Shown: piece after piece, positions 1 through 25,210 of the stretch
Position numbering within the stretch: position 1 is the first letter of the stretch
Layout of the letters: the number at the start of each line of letters is the position of its first letter
UHGV virus genome: UHGV-0126570
Strand: one strand, 5' to 3'
From: a virus
DNA: 59,916 nucleotides
The notes under the pieces: model-generated
What the model was told of the DNA's origin: nothing
What the model saw: the letters and a program-made list of their open reading frames with translations, nothing else
Databases searched by the model: none
Made by a program: the position numbers and the translations under genes

Positions 1-35
1 CATGGAACGGGCACACCAACGGGCAGTGCAGAGCC

Positions 36-61
36 TTCCCCCAAACCAACGTTTTAGTCTT
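36..61. other. Putative invertase crossover site (cix/gix/hix-like imperfect palindrome)
   Basis: TTCCCCCAAACC-AA-CGTTTTAGTCTT lies 55-80 bp upstream of the invertase start; AAACC..GTTT half-sites around a central AA dinucleotide resemble known Hin/Gin/Cin recombination sites. The invertible segment would lie left of the window. Confidence 0.4.
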
Positions 62-115
62 AATCCCTACCTATACCAACTATGTATTTTTAACTAAACA
101 AAGAGGATGTTTTTC

Positions 116-688
116 ATGCAAATTGGCTACATTCGTGTGTCAACAAATGACCAAAACACAGATTTACAAAGAAATGCACTGAACTGCGCAGGATGTGAAC
201 TAATTTTTGAAGATAAAATCAGCGGAACAAAGTCAGCCAGACCAGGATTGAAAAAGCTGCTCAGAACGTTATCAGAAGGAGATACGCTGGTTGTCTGGAA
301 GCTGGACAGGCTTGGCAGAAGTATGAAACACCTGATCACACTTATTGAGGAGCTGCGGGAAAAAGGTGTTAATTTTCGTAGTCTGACAGACAGCATTGAC
401 ACCTCAACACCCATGGGGCGTTTCTTTTTTCACGTCATGGGGGCTTTAGCAGAAATGGAACGTGAATTAATTGTTGAGAGAACCCTGGCTGGACTGGCAG
501 CTGCACGCGAACAGGGACGCATTGGCGGACGTCGCCCGAAGTTGACAAAAGAACAACATGAGCAAATAGCGAGGTTGATCGAAAATGGCTACAGCAGGAA
601 ACAGTTGGCAATTATTTACGATATCGGTGTATCGACGATTTATCGTTATCACCCTGTAGAGAAGCGCCAAACTCAAACTGAGTTGTAA
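116..688 (+). CDS. Serine recombinase, DNA invertase (Hin/Gin/Cin/Pin family)
   Basis: Translation IGYIRVSTNDQNTDLQRNAL...DTLVVWKLDRLGRS...MGRFFFHVMGALAEMERELIVERT...C-terminal HTH; catalytic Ser in the YIRVST motif. ORF track starts at 107; the ATG at 116 has better spacing to AGAGGA at 102-106. Confidence 0.9.
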   Translation: MQIGYIRVSTNDQNTDLQRNALNCAGCELIFEDKISGTKSARPGLKKLLRTLSEGDTLVVWKLDRLGRSMKHLITLIEELREKGVNFRSLTDSIDTSTPMGRFFFHVMGALAEMERELIVERTLAGLAAAREQGRIGGRRPKLTKEQHEQIARLIENGYSRKQLAIIYDIGVSTIYRYHPVEKRQTQTEL

Positions 689-940
689 TACAAATGCCGC
701 GTCGATGTAGTTTATCTCGAGGGAATAGATACACTTATCGCGCGGCGCATCAATTCGATGCATCTTGTGTCGGACCGACCACTAATGAAAACCATCCCTG
801 TAATGTTGATCTTAATTGCATCGTGAGCGCTGCATTGGTGTACAGATGTCGATAGAATTAGTGGGATTCAGAAGGTTTATTCATCTGGCACGCAGCGATT
901 ACAGCAGCACAACTAAATTGCCCTCAAGCCGCTCTAACTG

Positions 941-1100
941 CTATACGACCAAGGCTTCATCTCTGGAAAACATACGCAGAACCTTTTTTAACCCTTGGCG
1001 TTCAGCCTTTTTGCCACTCGCTTTGCCCTCAAAAATTAGCTCACATCCTGCGCTTTCAAGGGGGGCGTTGCAAAGCGGTGTTTTGGTCATTTGTTGAAAT
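941..1100 (-). pseudogene. Fossil of a second Cin-like invertase gene (5' portion only, frameshifted, inverted relative to the intact invertase)
   Basis: Minus-strand translation ...ESAGCELIFEGKASGKKAERQGLKKVLRMFSRDEALVV matches residues ~20-60 of invertases but is preceded by out-of-frame sequence and followed by a stop; a 24-bp stretch (1028-1051) is nearly identical to the inverted complement of 188-212 in the intact gene. Confidence 0.6.
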
Positions 1101-1224
1101 GCGAATGTATCCAATAAGCATATGTCTCCCTTGTATGCTAAGGATACGATTCTAGAAGATGTCCTGTAAGGAAATAACAAACTGACTAAGTTAGTGGCGC
1201 ATTAGATGTTATTTCTGGAGGGGT

Positions 1225-1551
1225 ATGTTTGCAGATTATGAAAATCTGGCTGTAGTAGTCATAACATCCCTACTAAGTGGAACCGGCGTATTCCTTCTCG
1301 GAGTTAGAGACGGGCGCATTTCTGCGTCCCTGCTCAATCTTGCGAGTGAATTGTTTACTGCGGTAACAGCCGGGCTTGCGGGGTATGGGGTGGCGGTTAG
1401 CCAAGAATGGCCTGAAGGTATCATTTTCTGCGTTGTTCTGATTGCCAGTAACAACGGTAGTGAAATTTTACAGGGCTTGAAGTCCAGAGCTAGTAACGTC
1501 TTGAATCTCTTAAGCGTAATAGCGAATGGGGGAAAAGGTGGAGAGAAATAA
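1225..1551 (+). CDS. Holin-like small membrane protein (three predicted TM segments)
   Basis: 108 aa with three hydrophobic stretches (LAVVVITSLLSGTGVFLLGV, LFTAVTAGLAGYGVAV, IIFCVVLIASN) and a polar C-terminus; class I holin-like topology. Function inferred from topology only. Confidence 0.4.
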   Translation: MFADYENLAVVVITSLLSGTGVFLLGVRDGRISASLLNLASELFTAVTAGLAGYGVAVSQEWPEGIIFCVVLIASNNGSEILQGLKSRASNVLNLLSVIANGGKGGEK

Positions 1552-1997
1552 TGGGTAACTTTGGAAATTATTTCATTTTTATCATGGCATTTGTTGCCAT
1601 CATTGACCGTTTCATTTTTCGTCGCAAGAGTGTTGAGATTTTGAGTATTGGTGATGCTGTAGTGAAAGAATCCGCTATAGCATTTCCTGTTTCGCTACGT
1701 GTTAAGCGAAGCTGGGTCAGCAATGCTCAAATCGAATATTGGTTGCAAGACCTGAAAAATCCATCTGTGGTTATTTCAGGGAAAACGCGACCAGTTGACG
1801 CCTCAAAACGCGGTGAGAGAGAAGAGTATTTGCTCATCGATACGAAATATCTTGAGCCAACGAAGTGGGATCTGAAAGTCACATTGACTAACGGTAACTG
1901 CCGACTGAATCCGCTTTATCGCATTTTCCCTATCAATGACTGCATAGAGCGCCAGTTTACGATCGAAAAGCGTGAAGGAGACTGGGATGTCAAATAA
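1551..1997 (+). CDS. Membrane-anchored protein (N-terminal TM), possible holin partner/antiholin
   Basis: 148 aa; N-terminal hydrophobic segment NYFIFIMAFVAIIDRFIF; stop/start overlap with the upstream holin-like gene. Role is a positional guess. Confidence 0.35.
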   Translation: MGNFGNYFIFIMAFVAIIDRFIFRRKSVEILSIGDAVVKESAIAFPVSLRVKRSWVSNAQIEYWLQDLKNPSVVISGKTRPVDASKRGEREEYLLIDTKYLEPTKWDLKVTLTNGNCRLNPLYRIFPINDCIERQFTIEKREGDWDVK

Positions 1998-6455: not shown

Positions 6456-8138
6456 ATGGCAACGAAAGACAAAAACAAAGGCTTTCTGTCAGCATTGAAG
6501 AAAGCCTTCAACGGTGGTGATGTTACGCCCGCCGATCCGGTCGTTTTTACGAGCGGGCATAGTGTCGTTGCTCGTTCCGGCCTGTCTGCTTTACGTCCAG
6601 GTATACTGGGGAGCAACAGCGATGGCATGACGAGTGCAGCAGATTCAATTTCTTTATCCGCTGAACTGCCCGGCGAGCGCCTGCAAAAGTACAACATCCT
6701 GGAAACGATGGCTAAAAGCCCGACTATCTCGACGGCTTTAAACATTCACATTGCACATGCGCTTGCGCCTTCAAAAAAAACCGGACAAGCATTCATCCTT
6801 TCGCCAAAGGATGGTTCCGATGCTGAGGCAGTAAGTAGATGTGAAGAGTTAACCGCTGATTTGGGGGCGATGATTAATGACGGACTTCCTTCATGGGCCA
6901 TGATTATGGCTATCTTTGGGGTGTCTTATGTCCGACCTTATGCTGAACAGGGCAGGGGGATAACAGGCATTGAGTCCAGTTATTACACTCTGCCACACTT
7001 CGTCCAGGAGTTTTATCGTGGTAGCCAGCTGGTAGGTTTCAGTGGTGATTACATTCTGGATACGCATAGTTTGCGCAGAGTAATAACCGAACCGTGGAAT
7101 CTGGTTTCCATGAAAAATCCCTATTGGACGCCACAGCATAAAGTTATTCCGGTTAGCTACGGCACAAAAGGGTACTCACTGTTAAGTGATCAGGCTGATA
7201 AGCCGTTAATGGAGACGCAGAATTACGGAACTTCATTCCTGGAATACAGCTATGAACCTTACCTTAATTTATGTGCTTCGCTCGCCGCGCTGAAATCAAC
7301 GCGAAATAATGCAGCCAAAATTGACCGCCTGATTGCTCTTACGACGAACACACTGGACCCGGTTAATGCGGCGAACTATACGCGTGGCGTCAGCCAGGCA
7401 TTGAAGCGTCATAGTGACCTGGTGGCGCAAAGGTCGATTAATGCCAACGCTATTCCGACTGTGCTTAACCATCTGATACCTGTTATGGGAGACGGGAAGA
7501 ACGGCATCACCATTGATACGCAATCCATACCCGCAGATATCAGTGGTATCGAAGACGTTATGTTTCACCTCCGGCAGCTTGCTGCAAGCCTCGGCATTGA
7601 CGCAACAATGCTTGGCTGGGCTGATCAGATGAGCGGAGGGCTTGGAGAAGGCGGCTGGCAGCAAACTGCTATCCAGGCTGCATTGCGTGCGAACTGGATC
7701 AGACAGGCCGCCCAGCGAACTATTTATCGGCTTCTGGACATTCACCTCGCTTATAAATACGGCAAGGTTTACACCGAAACAAACCGCCCTTATGACGTGC
7801 AATTCAACTCAATGAACACTGCTATCCAGGAAGAGGAAAACCGAGAACTGGATGCACGCGCCAACTTTGTTGCTGTCATCTCCCAAATTATGGACCAGAT
7901 CCAGAACAACCCGAAACTGGCTGGTAGCGACGCGTTTATGCGTTATCTGTTCACTGAGCAGTTGCACATCGACGATGACACTCTCAACACCATGATCAAA
8001 GAGTTTAAGGCGAATGAATCAGAGCAAAACAACGAGCATGGTATGTACGAATCCGCGCCGTTGTCGTCCGGTGACGATCCGGAAAACTGGACGCCAGAAC
8101 AGTTAATAAACTTTGCAAAATTTGTGATGAGCAATTAA
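6456..8138 (+). CDS. Hypothetical protein (560 aa), possibly virion structural
   Basis: Long ORF with ATG start; size and adjacency to a ~330-aa gene resemble the portal/protease pair of P1-like phages, but there is no motif evidence. Confidence 0.4.
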   Translation: MATKDKNKGFLSALKKAFNGGDVTPADPVVFTSGHSVVARSGLSALRPGILGSNSDGMTSAADSISLSAELPGERLQKYNILETMAKSPTISTALNIHIAHALAPSKKTGQAFILSPKDGSDAEAVSRCEELTADLGAMINDGLPSWAMIMAIFGVSYVRPYAEQGRGITGIESSYYTLPHFVQEFYRGSQLVGFSGDYILDTHSLRRVITEPWNLVSMKNPYWTPQHKVIPVSYGTKGYSLLSDQADKPLMETQNYGTSFLEYSYEPYLNLCASLAALKSTRNNAAKIDRLIALTTNTLDPVNAANYTRGVSQALKRHSDLVAQRSINANAIPTVLNHLIPVMGDGKNGITIDTQSIPADISGIEDVMFHLRQLAASLGIDATMLGWADQMSGGLGEGGWQQTAIQAALRANWIRQAAQRTIYRLLDIHLAYKYGKVYTETNRPYDVQFNSMNTAIQEEENRELDARANFVAVISQIMDQIQNNPKLAGSDAFMRYLFTEQLHIDDDTLNTMIKEFKANESEQNNEHGMYESAPLSSGDDPENWTPEQLINFAKFVMSN

Positions 8139-23220: not shown

Positions 23221-23341
23221 AAGAAAGAAGCCGACTTGTGATCCCTTTCTGCGGGCATTTGAAAGTGAATCCAGCTCAGGCAGTCGGCTTCTTTCTTGTG
23301 TGAGATGTAGCGTATTTGCCCATCTTCGGGTGGGCTTTTTT
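23221..23341 (+). ncRNA. Candidate small structured RNA (16-bp stem-loop plus intrinsic terminator)
   Basis: AAGAAAGAAGCCGACT (23221-23236) pairs with AGTCGGCTTCTTTCTT (23282-23297); then GCCCATCTTCGGGTGGGC followed by TTTTTT (23318-23341). The overlapping 85-codon ORF (23123-23380) runs through both hairpins and is probably not coding. Confidence 0.3.
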
Positions 23342-23801
23342 AGGGTTTTCGTCATGGTTAGCGACTTTGCGGCGGTTTAGAACCCGACCATTAAAGTAAA
23401 TGCAAACGATGATCTGATGATGGTAGCGGCCTAAGAAGCCTGACGCCACGGGGTATGAGTCGTCCCCCGTCAAAAAATCGACCGCAGAGTGTCCCCGTCT
23501 GTGTATTAGGGAACGGGGAGGCATAACAGGCAAGGGCGCTGGTGTGATTAACCAGATGAATGAGAAGGGTCAGGTCTTTCTGGTCAGCGCCCTTACCTGT
23601 TACGTCCCTCCCGCGTAACAGCCATTGATTAATGGCTTTCTGGGATAACATCCTACTACGGGTATATCCCGTCATGCTGAAGGCGCTAATCACGCTGGAA
23701 GCCAGGGTTGTGCATCCCCTGTTACCGAATTGCAGCCAGGGCGCGGTGCGCCGAAAAGCATACGGAGGTGGAAGCCCTCGCCGGAGACGTAACCGGCAAG
23801 T

Positions 23802-23878
23802 GATGGTGTAGCTCAGTAGGATAGAGCAGCAGCCTTCTAAGCTGTCGGTCGGTGGTTCGAATCCACCCACCATCGCCA
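23802..23878 (+). tRNA. tRNA-Arg (anticodon UCU; decodes rare AGA)
   Basis: Manual cloverleaf: acceptor GATGGTG/CACCATC, D-arm GCTC-AGTAGGATA-GAGC, anticodon stem GCAGC/GCTGT with loop CTTCTAA, T-arm GGTGG-TTCGAAT-CCACC, encoded CCA. Confidence 0.8.
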
Positions 23879-23880
23879 AT

Positions 23881-23956
23881 GCCGGTTTAGCTCAGTTGGT
23901 AGAGCGCCTGCCTTGTAAGCAGGATGTCAGCGGTTCGAGTCCGTTAACCGGCACCA
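23881..23956 (+). tRNA. tRNA-Thr (anticodon UGU)
   Basis: Acceptor GCCGGTT/AACCGGC, D-arm GCTC-AGTTGGTA-GAGC, anticodon stem CCTGC/GCAGG with loop CTTGTAA, T-loop TTCGAGT, encoded CCA. Confidence 0.8.
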
Positions 23957-23964
23957 ACACAACA

Positions 23965-24039
23965 GGTAAGGGTATTTTGCGACGTCGGAGATCGCCGTGC
24001 TTGGCAGAGGGTTCGAATCCCTACGAAGTACCCTTACCG
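23965..24039 (+). ncRNA. Non-canonical tRNA-like element (acceptor-like stem plus T-loop, no canonical D/anticodon arms)
   Basis: GGTAAGG(G)...GGGTTCGAATCCC...CCCTTACC: a 7-8 bp terminal helix and a perfect T-loop consensus, but the interior cannot be folded into a cloverleaf. Either a tRNA pseudogene or an RNase P-type processed regulatory RNA. Confidence 0.3.
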
Positions 24040-24421
24040 TTGTGATGAAGTGCAGCTCTTTGAAGCAACCAGAAGATAAGCATCTGGCTTCACAACATAA
24101 ACCGCAGGAACGACCAATAAACGGTAGTCCGTATGGAGAATACCCCGTTGAGGAAGAGGCCTGGCCGGAACCGTAACCGGCACTACAACGTTGAGAACAC
24201 TGACGTAACGGGGTCATATCCCAATCTACGAATAAATGTTGCGTTGCAGCGTGACAACCAGTGTTCTCAACGTTGTGGTGGATTCGCAGACTGATGCGAT
24301 AGCTTTCTTGGATGTTAGGGAAATGCGGCCGCAAACCTTCCCTTTCGCGAGCGGTGATCGTCCGTAGTCCTAATTGGCTGCACCGTATGCCGGAGATTCA
24401 GTACCGGCCACCACAACGGCC

Positions 24422-24508
24422 GGAGAGTAGGGAGCATGGTGCTCAAGCGGTCTTGAAAACCGTCCCATTGCGCAAGCGATGATGGTTCGATTCCATTACT
24501 CTCCGCCA
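24422..24508 (+). tRNA. Probable type II tRNA, tRNA-Ser (anticodon UGA)-like
   Basis: Acceptor GGAGAGT/ACTCTCC, anticodon arm GCGGT-CTTGAAA-ACCGT (close to E. coli serT), 17-nt variable region, T-arm GATGG-TTCGATT-CCATT, encoded CCA. D-arm and variable arm are atypical. Confidence 0.55.
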
Positions 24509-24775
24509 GCGCAACGTTAAGAGTATTTGGCTAATTAAGCGAATGCCGGAAGCAGAACCGGATCAACAAATGCGTACAGGCGTCATCGCCGCCCAGCCAG
24601 CCAAGTGCTCTTACCATTGCGGTGAATGCGGCTAAGCGCACGCGGAACAGTTAAAACAATCCTCCTTAGTGGTTAAGTCAAACATCCCGGCGTTAATTGT
24701 TAACTGGTTAACGTCACCTGGAGGCACCAGGCACCGCAACCTAATAAATACGTCATGTTTATTGAGGGATAACCA

Positions 24776-25210
24776 ATGTTCGGTAAATTTTTCGGTAAGA
24801 AAGTCGCTTCAGCAAAAGTAGAGCTGAAAAGGGTTGAGAATCGCGATCTGATGGAGGCCATTATCGGTGGCTGTTTGTTGGTGTCTGCCGCAGATGGTGA
24901 AATCGAAAAGGAAGAAACAGCGAAACTTGATCAGCTTGTCCGCTCTAATCCTCGCTTAAGTCATTTTGGCAACGAAATTACCGCAACAATCACCCGTTTT
25001 ACTGAGCAACTGGAAGCTGGTTTCCGTGTTGGTCGCATGAATATCCTTCGCGAAATTGAAGATATCAAAAATGATCCAAAAGAAGCGGAAGAAGTATTCG
25101 TTAACATGCTGACGATTGCAGAAGCGGACGGTGAAATCGAGCCAGCAGAACACAAAGTACTGGAAGAAGTAGGCCGTCGTTTGGGCCTTCGTGTGGAAGA
25201 TTATCTGTAA
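24776..25210 (+). CDS. TerB-like domain protein (tellurite-resistance TerB / TciA-like)
   Basis: 144 aa with the paired acidic helices typical of the TerB fold (...LLVSAADGEIEKEE...LTIAEADGEIEPAEHKVLEEV); GAGGG RBS. Adjacent to the tRNA-Ile2 gene, as tciA is adjacent to trnI in P1. Confidence 0.65.
   Translation: MFGKFFGKKVASAKVELKRVENRDLMEAIIGGCLLVSAADGEIEKEETAKLDQLVRSNPRLSHFGNEITATITRFTEQLEAGFRVGRMNILREIEDIKNDPKEAEEVFVNMLTIAEADGEIEPAEHKVLEEVGRRLGLRVEDYL

What the first reader, a model, noticed from the sequence alone, without database searches (positions are those of the whole stretch)
36..1100. Invertase module at the window edge with an inverted fossil of a displaced cin gene
An intact invertase (116-688) is preceded by a crossover-like site (36-61), so the invertible tail-fibre segment probably lies just left of the window. 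About 250 bp downstream, on the opposite strand, is a frameshifted fragment encoding residues ~20-60 of a different, P1 Cin-like invertase. The fragment keeps a 24-bp block (1028-1051) nearly identical to the inverted complement of 188-212 in the intact gene, the region where invertase genes carry the Fis-dependent recombinational enhancer. This suggests an invertase replacement event and a possible second enhancer copy in inverted orientation.
Basis: seen in the sequence. Interest (0 to 1): 0.55.

Follow-up and report, generated by a model that had tools for sequence, protein, structure and literature searches.

The report
Min-type tail-fibre invertase with cin remnant
The window edge carries an ordinary, already described phage host-range switch, a Pin/Min-type DNA invertase with its crossover site, next to the decayed first half of the Cin invertase gene it displaced, an arrangement first seen in plasmid p15B and common in P1- and D6-like phage-plasmids.

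Summary
Bases 116-688 encode an intact 190-aa serine invertase, 81% identical to e14 Pin and 74-75% to P1/D6 Cin. A 26-bp crossover site lies at 36-61. Bases 826-1121 on the minus strand are the first 307 nt of a D6/P1-type cin gene, broken by 2-nt and 9-nt deletions and stop codons.

The window is a D6-like phage-plasmid, and collinearity with D6 starts exactly at 826. D6 has an intact cin at that position.

Close relatives show what lies to the left: a multi-site tail-fibre inversion region. It has eight sites in the nearest complete plasmid and three in others. Two isolates from one patient carry the same plasmid with a 1.9-kb segment exactly inverted between two such sites. The window's own first 35 nt match a different cassette than the one at that site in its nearest relative.

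This is the Min architecture of plasmid p15B, including the truncated invertase remnant. It occurs in well over a hundred database plasmids.

The "second enhancer" is a sequence relic. Its distal Fis core is intact, but a 2-nt deletion cuts the core spacing from 47 to 45 bp. Similar cin remnants persist in plasmids that have no invertase nearby. Interest is low.

The parts
1..53 (-). Start of a silent (unexpressed) alternative tail-fibre C-terminal cassette. It reads leftward out of the window and begins inside the crossover site.
   Evidence: The minus-strand translation is NVGLGEGSALPVGVPVP. The expressed tail-fibre gene of relative L014 reads YLGLGEGSALPVGVPIPW across its partner site. Bases 1-35 match the cassette at L014:6054 with 0 mismatches. 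They match the cassette next to the invertase in that plasmid with 4 mismatches.
36..61 (.). 26-bp crossover site of the hix/gix/cix/pix/mix class, with central AA at 48-49. It is the invertase-proximal member of a multi-site set.
   Evidence: It is unique in the window, with 0.01 expected by chance. It is identical to the proximal site in L005 and L014. Sites of this family are the exact breakpoints of an inversion between L008 and L009. It aligns with the e14 site.
62..115 (+). Leader of the invertase gene, with ribosome-binding site AGAGGA at 100-105. The promoter was not identified.
   Evidence: Read directly from the sequence. The consensus scan found no sigma-70-like site here.
116..688 (+). 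Intact Pin/Min-type serine DNA invertase, 190 aa.
   Evidence: Resolvase and HTH_7 domains. It is 81% identical to e14 PinE and 74-75% to P1/D6 Cin. The exact protein is seen on 698 contigs. A variant differing by one residue equals UniRef Q05517_ECOLX 'DNA-invertase' and WP_001165547.1, found in both P1-like and D6-like plasmids.
134..205 (+). Presumptive Fis-dependent recombinational enhancer inside the invertase gene. The presumptive Fis cores are at 139-153 and 186-200.
   Evidence: It is homologous to the enhancer annotated in the P1 record at cin nt 19-90, with 59 of 72 identical. The cores are 47 bp apart centre to centre. The proximal core centre is 97.5 bp from the site centre. This matches the hin layout described in PMC3798978. 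Fis binding was not tested.
689..825 (+). 3' flank that travels with the Min cassette. It has two hairpins just after the stop codon, at 696-746 and 747-761, which may be a terminator.
   Evidence: It is shared with P1-like Min plasmids at about 80% identity and is absent from D6 and P1. Hairpins are seen, but the fold energy is not different from shuffles (z -0.8 and -1.6).
826..1121 (-). psi-cin: the truncated, decayed first 307 nt of a D6/P1-type cin invertase gene.
   Evidence: blastn gives cin nt 1-307 at 82% identity to D6 and 79% to P1, with 11 gap positions. The alignment shows a 2-nt deletion, a 9-nt deletion and stops. The same truncation and indels occur in the independent assemblies L004 and L024, and H56 (NZ_CP135715) is 100% identical to window 689-1125.
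1034..1103 (-). Enhancer remnant inside psi-cin. The distal core (1039-1053) is intact. The proximal core (1084-1098) is changed at its first base. A 2-nt deletion lies between 1065 and 1066.
   Evidence: the distal core is GCGCAGGATGTGAGC, identical to P1 and D6. The proximal core is TTCAACAAATGACCA, against ATCAAC... in P1 and D6. The centre-to-centre distance is 45 bp instead of 47.
1122..1224 (.). Former cin upstream region and intergenic region before lydA. This is D6 backbone.
   Evidence: It aligns with the D6 region upstream of cin and is 100% identical to D6 from 1171 onward. lydA, lydB and DarA_N follow.

Best explanation
Bases 1-825 are the right-hand end of a Min/Pin-type tail-fibre host-range switch carried by a D6-like phage-plasmid.

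How it works. The invertase (116-688) binds 26-bp crossover sites. One is at 36-61. The others, including an inverted one inside the tail-fibre gene, lie just left of the window. With host Fis bound to the enhancer in the first ~90 nt of the invertase's own gene, it inverts DNA between oppositely oriented sites. Each inversion joins a different C-terminal cassette, and its assembly-chaperone gene, to the constant part of the tail-fibre gene. This changes host range.

The remnant. Bases 826-1121 are a neutral scar. They are the 5' half of the Cin-type invertase gene that occupied this position, as it still does in D6 and P1. An ancestor exchanged its two-site Cin/C-segment module for a Pin/Min-type multi-site module. 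The scar now travels with the module among P1-like and D6-like plasmids by recombination. Its enhancer copy is a decaying relic.

What is shown: the domains, the site family, inversion at such sites in near-identical relatives, the cassette swap at the window's own site, and the truncation and decay of cin.

What is inferred: Fis dependence, host-range switching, and neutrality of the scar.
For: Invertase and site:
- Domains and homology are given.
- The e14 layout, site then pin, is the same.

Inversion region in relatives:
- Relatives have 3 sites (L004, L007-L009) or 8 sites (L014). One site is inverted and lies inside the tail-fibre gene.
- L008 and L009 come from the same patient and are the same plasmid length. 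Over 12,297 bp they are identical except for a segment of 1,906-1,926 bp that is exactly inverted, with 0 mismatches. The half-sites TTCTCCC and TTCCCCC are swapped.
- The annotated tail-fibre protein changes accordingly.
- The window's first 35 nt equal an internal cassette of its nearest relative, joined precisely at the site.

Replacement and scar:
- D6 has an intact cin reading toward its C segment at the homologous position.
- Collinearity with D6 runs from 826 to 25000.
- The psi-cin truncation and indels are shown.
- P1 record notes place both a cin-enhancer-like stretch (6463-6533) and a cin 5' fragment with promoter (7147-7408) in p15B, followed by lydC and lydA.
- P1-like plasmids carry the same invertase protein with a 177-nt remnant.
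- PMC6906374 reports an invertase 98.5% identical to p15B Min in a P1-like plasmid, in reverse orientation relative to cin.
- Orphan cin remnants of 212-236 nt persist with no invertase within 3.5 kb (L011-L013).
Against: - The partner sites and cassettes are not in the window, so activity in this particular molecule is inferred from relatives.
- The junction at bases 1-35 could also arise from a deletion between direct sites, or from a different cassette set.
- No Fis binding or inversion assay is available.
- In three decayed remnants (window, L005, L010), cin nt 64-94, which includes the distal Fis core, is almost unchanged while the flanks have many changes. This is a weak hint of constraint.
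- Identity to the p15B Min sequence itself could not be checked, because X62121 is not held.
Confidence: 0.9

Rival explanations
1. The psi-cin remnant is retained because it still works in cis. It could act as a second, inverted Fis-dependent enhancer, or as a single Fis site that helps the invertase reach crossover sites spread over several kb.
For: - The enhancer homologue is present, with an intact distal core carrying the G/C dyad.
- nt 64-94 is nearly invariant in three otherwise decayed remnants.
- Every remnant examined keeps at least the first 177 nt.
- The hin enhancer still works when moved 868 bp from a hix site (PMC3798978).
Against: - Core spacing is 45 bp rather than 47 in the window lineage. 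L010 also carries an independent 2-nt deletion between the presumptive cores, which would shorten its spacing in the same way. Helical phasing of the two Fis sites is critical (PMC3798978 citing Johnson et al. 1987).
- The first base of the proximal core is changed.
- The intact gene has its own enhancer at the native distance of about 100 bp.
- Remnants persist where no invertase is nearby.
- L024 carries a substitution inside the conserved block.
- The population sample is too clonal to test for constraint.
Confidence: 0.06
2. The remnant is kept because the old cin promoter and 5' region have a regulatory role. It might drive antisense transcription into the 3' end of the invertase gene, or insulate or control the divergent lydA lysis operon.
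For: - The P1 record annotates two promoters just upstream of cin.
- The corresponding D6-type upstream region is retained nearly intact in the window.
- Replacement junctions in six plasmid types all fall inside cin, at nt 177-308, and never upstream of it.
- Hairpins at 696-761 lie between the convergent units.
Against: - The consensus scan found no sigma-70-like promoter pointing into psi-cin from the region just upstream of it (about 1122-1224). The single hit lies inside lydA, and one hit is no more than shuffles give.
- Junctions upstream of cin might simply be lethal or invisible to my search, which is a survivorship effect.
- A match covering only about 56 nt of the cin 5' end (window 1070-1125) turned up in one plasmid (H95); whether it is a shorter remnant was not examined.
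- No transcript data are available.
Confidence: 0.04
3. The fragment is an intact second invertase gene that only appears broken because of sequencing errors.
For: Frameshifts are a common error type. The related phage record 673R5 has its invertase split into 'Hin1' and 'Hin2'.
Against: - Homology to cin stops at nt 307 of 561 and is followed by unrelated DNA.
- The same truncation, the 2-nt and 9-nt deletions and the stops recur in the independent assemblies L004 and L024. H56 is 100% identical to window 689-1125.
Confidence: 0.005

Closest known systems
Min multiple DNA inversion system of plasmid p15B (E. coli 15T-). References: Sandmeier et al. 1990 PNAS, cited in PMC5903667; Iida et al. 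1990 Mol Microbiol, cited in PMC6906374.
   Same: - The invertase is Pin-like and lies outside the invertible DNA, reading away from it.
- There are more than two crossover sites, which shuffle tail-fibre 3' cassettes.
- The enhancer lies in the 5' coding region of the invertase gene.
- A truncated cin-like 5' fragment in inverted orientation sits between the invertase and the lyd genes (P1 record notes).
- P1-like plasmids with that layout carry the same invertase protein as D6-like relatives of the window.
   Different: - The backbone is D6-like, not P1-like.
- The remnant is 307 nt and of D6 type, against 177 nt and P1 type in P1-like Min plasmids.
- The nearest relative has eight sites. 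From memory, p15B has six.
- The p15B sequence itself could not be aligned here.
Pin system of the e14 cryptic prophage, E. coli K-12
   Same: - The invertase is 81% identical.
- The order is the same: silent cassette, crossover site, then an invertase reading away.
- The crossover-site core is near-identical.
- Tail-fibre and assembly genes are the cargo.
   Different: - e14 has a simple two-site P segment.
- It has no cin remnant.
- It is chromosomal and defective.
Cin/C-segment system of phages P1, P7 and D6
   Same: - It is the same family and has the same biological role.
- It occupies the same genomic position, between the tail-fibre operon and the lyd genes.
- psi-cin is a remnant of exactly this gene.
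   Different: - cin reads toward the segment, and cixL overlaps its 3' end.
- It has only two sites.
- In the window that gene is truncated and dead.
Hin/hix/Fis enhancer of Salmonella (invertasome paradigm)
   Same: - The crossover sites are 26 bp.
- The enhancer has two Fis cores 47 bp apart.
- The enhancer lies about 100 bp from the nearest site and inside the invertase coding sequence (PMC3798978).
   Different: - hin lies inside its invertible segment and switches a promoter, not coding cassettes.
R64 shufflon
   Same: - It is a multi-site inversion cluster that assembles alternative C-termini of a host-recognition protein.
   Different: - It uses a tyrosine recombinase (Rci) and unrelated sites. 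It is analogous, not homologous. This comparison is from general knowledge and was not tested here.

Membership tests
Din-family serine DNA invertases (Hin/Gin/Cin/Pin/Min) | Protein of about 190 aa with an N-terminal resolvase catalytic domain, including the catalytic serine motif, and a C-terminal HTH_7 domain | tested here: met
   PF00239 E 2e-51 and PF02796 E 3e-15. The YIRVSTNDQ motif is conserved with Pin and Cin.
Din-family serine DNA invertases (Hin/Gin/Cin/Pin/Min) | 26-bp imperfectly dyad-symmetric crossover sites present in inverted orientation | tested here: met
   One site lies at 36-61 of the window. Inverted partners are seen only in relatives. The window ends 35 nt left of its site.
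Din-family serine DNA invertases (Hin/Gin/Cin/Pin/Min) | Inversion actually occurs between the sites | tested here: met
   An exact inversion with swapped half-sites separates two same-patient plasmids. Their invertase is 99% identical to the window's. This was not testable for the window molecule itself, because no reads are available.
Din-family serine DNA invertases (Hin/Gin/Cin/Pin/Min) | Fis-dependent enhancer in cis, with two Fis sites about 47-48 bp apart | tested here: inconclusive
   A sequence homologue of the P1-annotated enhancer is present with 47-bp core spacing, 97.5 bp from the site. Fis binding and stimulation are not testable with these tools.
Min system of p15B | Invertase closer to Pin than to Cin | tested here: met
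   81% identity to PinE against 74-75% to Cin.
Min system of p15B | Cluster of more than two crossover sites giving overlapping invertible segments in a tail-fibre gene | tested here: met
   The nearest complete relative has eight sites and others have three. These are not visible inside the window.
Min system of p15B | Truncated cin-like 5' fragment between the invertase gene and the lyd genes | tested here: met
   It lies at window 826-1121. The p15B coordinates in the P1 record notes imply the same order and orientation.
Min system of p15B | Near-identity to the published Min protein (X62121) | not testable with these tools
   X62121 and pJIE250-3 are not in the collections. Two pieces of indirect evidence exist. 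A one-residue variant equals the old UniProt entry Q05517_ECOLX 'DNA-invertase'. A P1-like plasmid invertase is reported as 98.5% identical to Min (PMC6906374).
Functional Cin invertase gene (applied to the 826-1121 fragment) | Intact reading frame of about 186 codons, with a cix site at its 3' end | tested here: not met
   The frame stops after 21 codons. Homology ends at nt 307 of 561. No second crossover site exists in the window.
Functional recombinational enhancer (applied to 1034-1103) | Two Fis cores at the native 47-bp centre-to-centre spacing | tested here: not met
   Spacing is 45 bp because of a 2-nt deletion, and the first base of the proximal core is changed. The placement of the cores rests on homology to hin sites that I recalled from memory, and on the P1 annotation.

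The most novel reading that the evidence does not exclude
The cin 5' remnant is not neutral. Its conserved distal Fis core (cin nt 64-94) or its old promoter may be kept because it acts in cis on the Min switch. It could serve as an auxiliary Fis-bound element for the far crossover sites, or as a source of antisense transcription that tunes invertase level. This would explain why independent module replacements keep at least the first 177 nt of cin.
Probability: 0.07. Interest if true: 0.45.

Novelty: already known. Interest (0 to 1): 0.15.

Why it matters
It matters little as a discovery. The Min/Pin-type tail-fibre switch and its cin scar were characterised in p15B about 35 years ago, and the same protein sits on hundreds of public contigs.

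The module is still useful for three practical reasons.
- It marks the exact boundary (base 826) of a host-range cassette exchange between P1-like and D6-like phage-plasmids.
- It explains why assemblies of these plasmids break or differ here.
- It shows that cin scars of different lengths (177, 212-217, 236 and 307 nt) can serve as markers to count independent tail-fibre module replacements in this clinically common plasmid family.

Tried and rejected
Sources that were not held:
- The primary p15B papers (NAR 1991, J Bacteriol 1992, PNAS 1990) and the P1 genome paper.
- X62121 and MN510445, which are not in the sequence collections.
- 'Q05517', which appears in no held paper.

Tests that gave nothing:
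- An Rfam scan of 1-1400 found nothing credible. The best hit had E 0.9.
- The promoter and terminator scan of 1-1300 found no more sites than shuffles give.
- Folding 680-840 on either strand did not differ significantly from shuffles.
- Source names from the protein search were uninformative ('recombinase family protein').

Constraint test on the psi-cin enhancer:
- I fetched 23 IMG/VR loci through an anchor in the Min 3' flank.
- Of these, 22 are the near-identical p15B type and one is the D6 type, so the test has no power.

Rejected idea:
- The fragment is not a sequencing artefact. The same indels occur in independent assemblies.

Full report
**What is in the sequence.**
- Bases 116-688 (+) are an intact 190-aa ORF with a resolvase catalytic domain and an HTH_7 domain.
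- An AGAGGA at 100-105 and the RefSeq gene models of relatives fix the start at 116.
- The 26-mer TTCCCCCAAACCAACGTTTTAGTCTT lies upstream at 36-61. It occurs once in the window, against 0.01 expected.
- Read on the minus strand, bases 53-1 encode NVGLGEGSALPVGVPVP.
- The expressed tail-fibre gene of a relative reads YLGLGEGSALPVGVPIPW across its own site.
- The left edge of the window is therefore the first 17 codons of a silent tail-fibre C-terminal cassette that starts inside the crossover site.

**The minus-strand fragment.**
- Window 1121 down to 826 aligns with nt 1-307 of the cin genes of D6 (82%) and P1 (79%), including the ATG.
- It has a 2-nt deletion after nt 56, a 9-nt deletion and several stops. 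The frame from the ATG ends after 21 codons.
- The inverted block is 186-210 against 1029-1053, with 24 of 25 matching and none in shuffles.
- A further 54-nt arm, 116-169 against 1068-1121, is 83% complementary.
- The two 5' gene ends therefore form an imperfect inverted repeat of about 95 nt, about 900 bp apart.

**Genomic context.**
- From 826 to at least 25000 the window is collinear with phage D6 at 94.6% identity.
- lydA, lydB and a DarA_N-domain (hdf/darA-region) gene follow at 1225 onward.
- In D6 and P1 an intact cin sits exactly where the fragment is. It reads toward the C segment, and cixL overlaps its 3' end.
- Bases 1-825 therefore replace the 3' part of cin and the C segment.
- The replacement did not happen recently in this plasmid. 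Bases 1171-1560 are 100% identical to D6, whereas the remnant differs from D6 cin by 10% near its 5' end and up to about 35% toward its 3' end. The scar is old and arrived with the neighbouring module.

**What lies to the left, and whether it inverts.**
- The nearest complete plasmid is NZ_CP135715. It is 100% identical over 689-1125 and has 6 mismatches in 1-651.
- It has eight crossover sites. Seven are in the orientation of the window's site. One is inverted and lies inside a 2.9-kb tail-fibre gene. Partial 'tail protein' cassettes and an assembly gene lie between them.
- Other D6-like relatives have three sites.
- Plasmids from isolates T5 and T20 of one patient are both 89,996 bp. Over 12,297 bp they are identical except for a 1,906-1,926-bp segment that is an exact reverse complement.
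- The breakpoints lie inside two sites, whose left halves (TTCTCCC and TTCCCCC) have been exchanged. The annotated tail-fibre protein and its chaperone change accordingly.
- Their invertase is 99% identical to the window's.
- In the window itself, bases 1-35 match an internal cassette of NZ_CP135715 with 0 mismatches. They match the cassette next to the invertase there with 4 mismatches. The switch occurs exactly at the site.
- That is the signature of recombination at this site. A deletion between direct sites or a different cassette set cannot be excluded.

**Family assignment.**
- The invertase is 81% identical to e14 PinE and 74-75% to P1/D6 Cin.
- e14 has the same order of silent cassette, site and outward-reading invertase.
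- The notes in the P1 GenBank record place three things in p15B (X62121): a stretch 83% identical to the cin enhancer at 6463-6533, a stretch 89% identical to the cin 5' end plus promoter at 7147-7408, and then lydC and lydA. That is the order and orientation seen in the window.
- P1-like plasmids with this layout carry WP_001165547.1, the same protein as in D6-like relatives. That sequence equals UniRef Q05517_ECOLX 'DNA-invertase'.
- PMC6906374 reports an invertase 98.5% identical to p15B Min, in reverse orientation relative to cin, in a P1-like plasmid.
- From memory, and not verifiable here, the 1991 p15B sequence paper already described a truncated 5' invertase gene next to min.
- The arrangement is common. 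474 plasmid records match part of bases 1-1300. About 120 fall in the 90-95% identity band, and all 17 of that band that were listed show the P1-like/p15B pattern of 75% coverage ending at 1123. Thirteen cover at least 80% of 1-1300, all at about 98% identity.
- Of 23 IMG/VR loci, 22 are the p15B type.

**The enhancer question.**
- The P1 record annotates the Cin enhancer at cin nt 19-90.
- By homology, the intact gene has its enhancer at 134-205. The presumptive Fis cores are GTCAACAAATGACCA (139-153) and GCGCAGGATGTGAAC (186-200).
- These cores are 47 bp apart, and the proximal one is 97.5 bp from the site centre.
- That matches hin, which has 47 bp between Fis sites and about 100 bp to hixL (PMC3798978).
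- My placement of the cores uses hin site sequences recalled from memory together with the G/C-dyad consensus (PMC7166090).
- The remnant's copy lies at 1034-1103. It keeps the distal core unchanged. Its proximal core begins with T instead of A or G, and the 2-nt deletion between 1065 and 1066 reduces the spacing to 45 bp.
- Helical phasing of the two sites is critical for enhancer function (PMC3798978 citing Johnson et al. 1987). This copy is therefore probably weak or dead.

**Other remnants.**
- cin remnants with other end points exist: nt 1-177 in P1-like Min plasmids, 1-236 (L011), 1-212 (L013), 1-217 (L012), and 1-308 (L010, where an IS3 element replaces the invertase gene).
- L011-L013 have no invertase within 3.5 kb. 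The remnant therefore persists without any enzyme to serve, as expected for a scar.
- There is one weak hint of constraint. In the three most decayed remnants, nt 64-94 is almost unchanged while the flanks carry many changes.
- However, one D6-type locus has a substitution there, and the available population is too clonal for a test.

**Verdict.**
- The second enhancer exists as sequence but is most likely a relic.
- The whole arrangement is the known Min-type module of p15B on a D6-like backbone. It is already known and of low interest.

Noticed in passing
L005:1232-1250 (NZ_CP148411): In P1-like (p15B-type) plasmids, the junction between the Min 3' flank and the 177-nt cin remnant is a perfect palindrome, CCCTAGTC-CGA-GACTAGGG. 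It is an inverted copy of the last 8 nt of the remnant. This may be a trace of how the junction formed.
   Followed up: no
L010-L013 (CP042620, NZ_CP055600, NZ_CP020522, CP063718): cin 5' remnants of 308, 236, 217 and 212 nt lie next to the lyd genes in plasmids whose tail-fibre modules differ. The neighbours are an IS3 element, a DapH-like acetyltransferase, a glycine-rich protein, and a non-invertible fibre gene. No intact invertase lies within 3.5 kb. This suggests several independent module replacements.
   Followed up: partly
window 1171-1560 versus 826-25000: lydA and its upstream region are 100% identical to D6, while the window averages 94.6% identity to D6 over 24 kb. This mosaic pattern indicates recent recombination near the module boundary.
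   Followed up: no
window 696-761: Two adjacent hairpins lie directly after the invertase stop codon, a long imperfect one at 696-746 and GCATC-N5-GATGC at 747-761. They may form a terminator between the convergent invertase gene and the remnant. The fold energy is not significant against shuffles.
   Followed up: partly
L010 psi-cin (cin nt 40-41) and window 1065/1066: Two diverged long remnants each carry an independent 2-nt deletion between the two presumptive Fis cores, so both would have 45-bp spacing. This could be coincidence.
   Followed up: no
window about 23315-25000: This stretch matches the tRNA-Asn/tRNA-Thr and terB/tciA region of P1 and P7 at about 92% identity.
   Followed up: no
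L001:6112-6683 (phage vB_EcoM-673R5, ON470615): The same invertase is annotated as two CDSs, 'Hin2' and 'Hin1'. The crossover site next to it lacks one base. These are probably sequencing errors in that record rather than biology.
   Followed up: no
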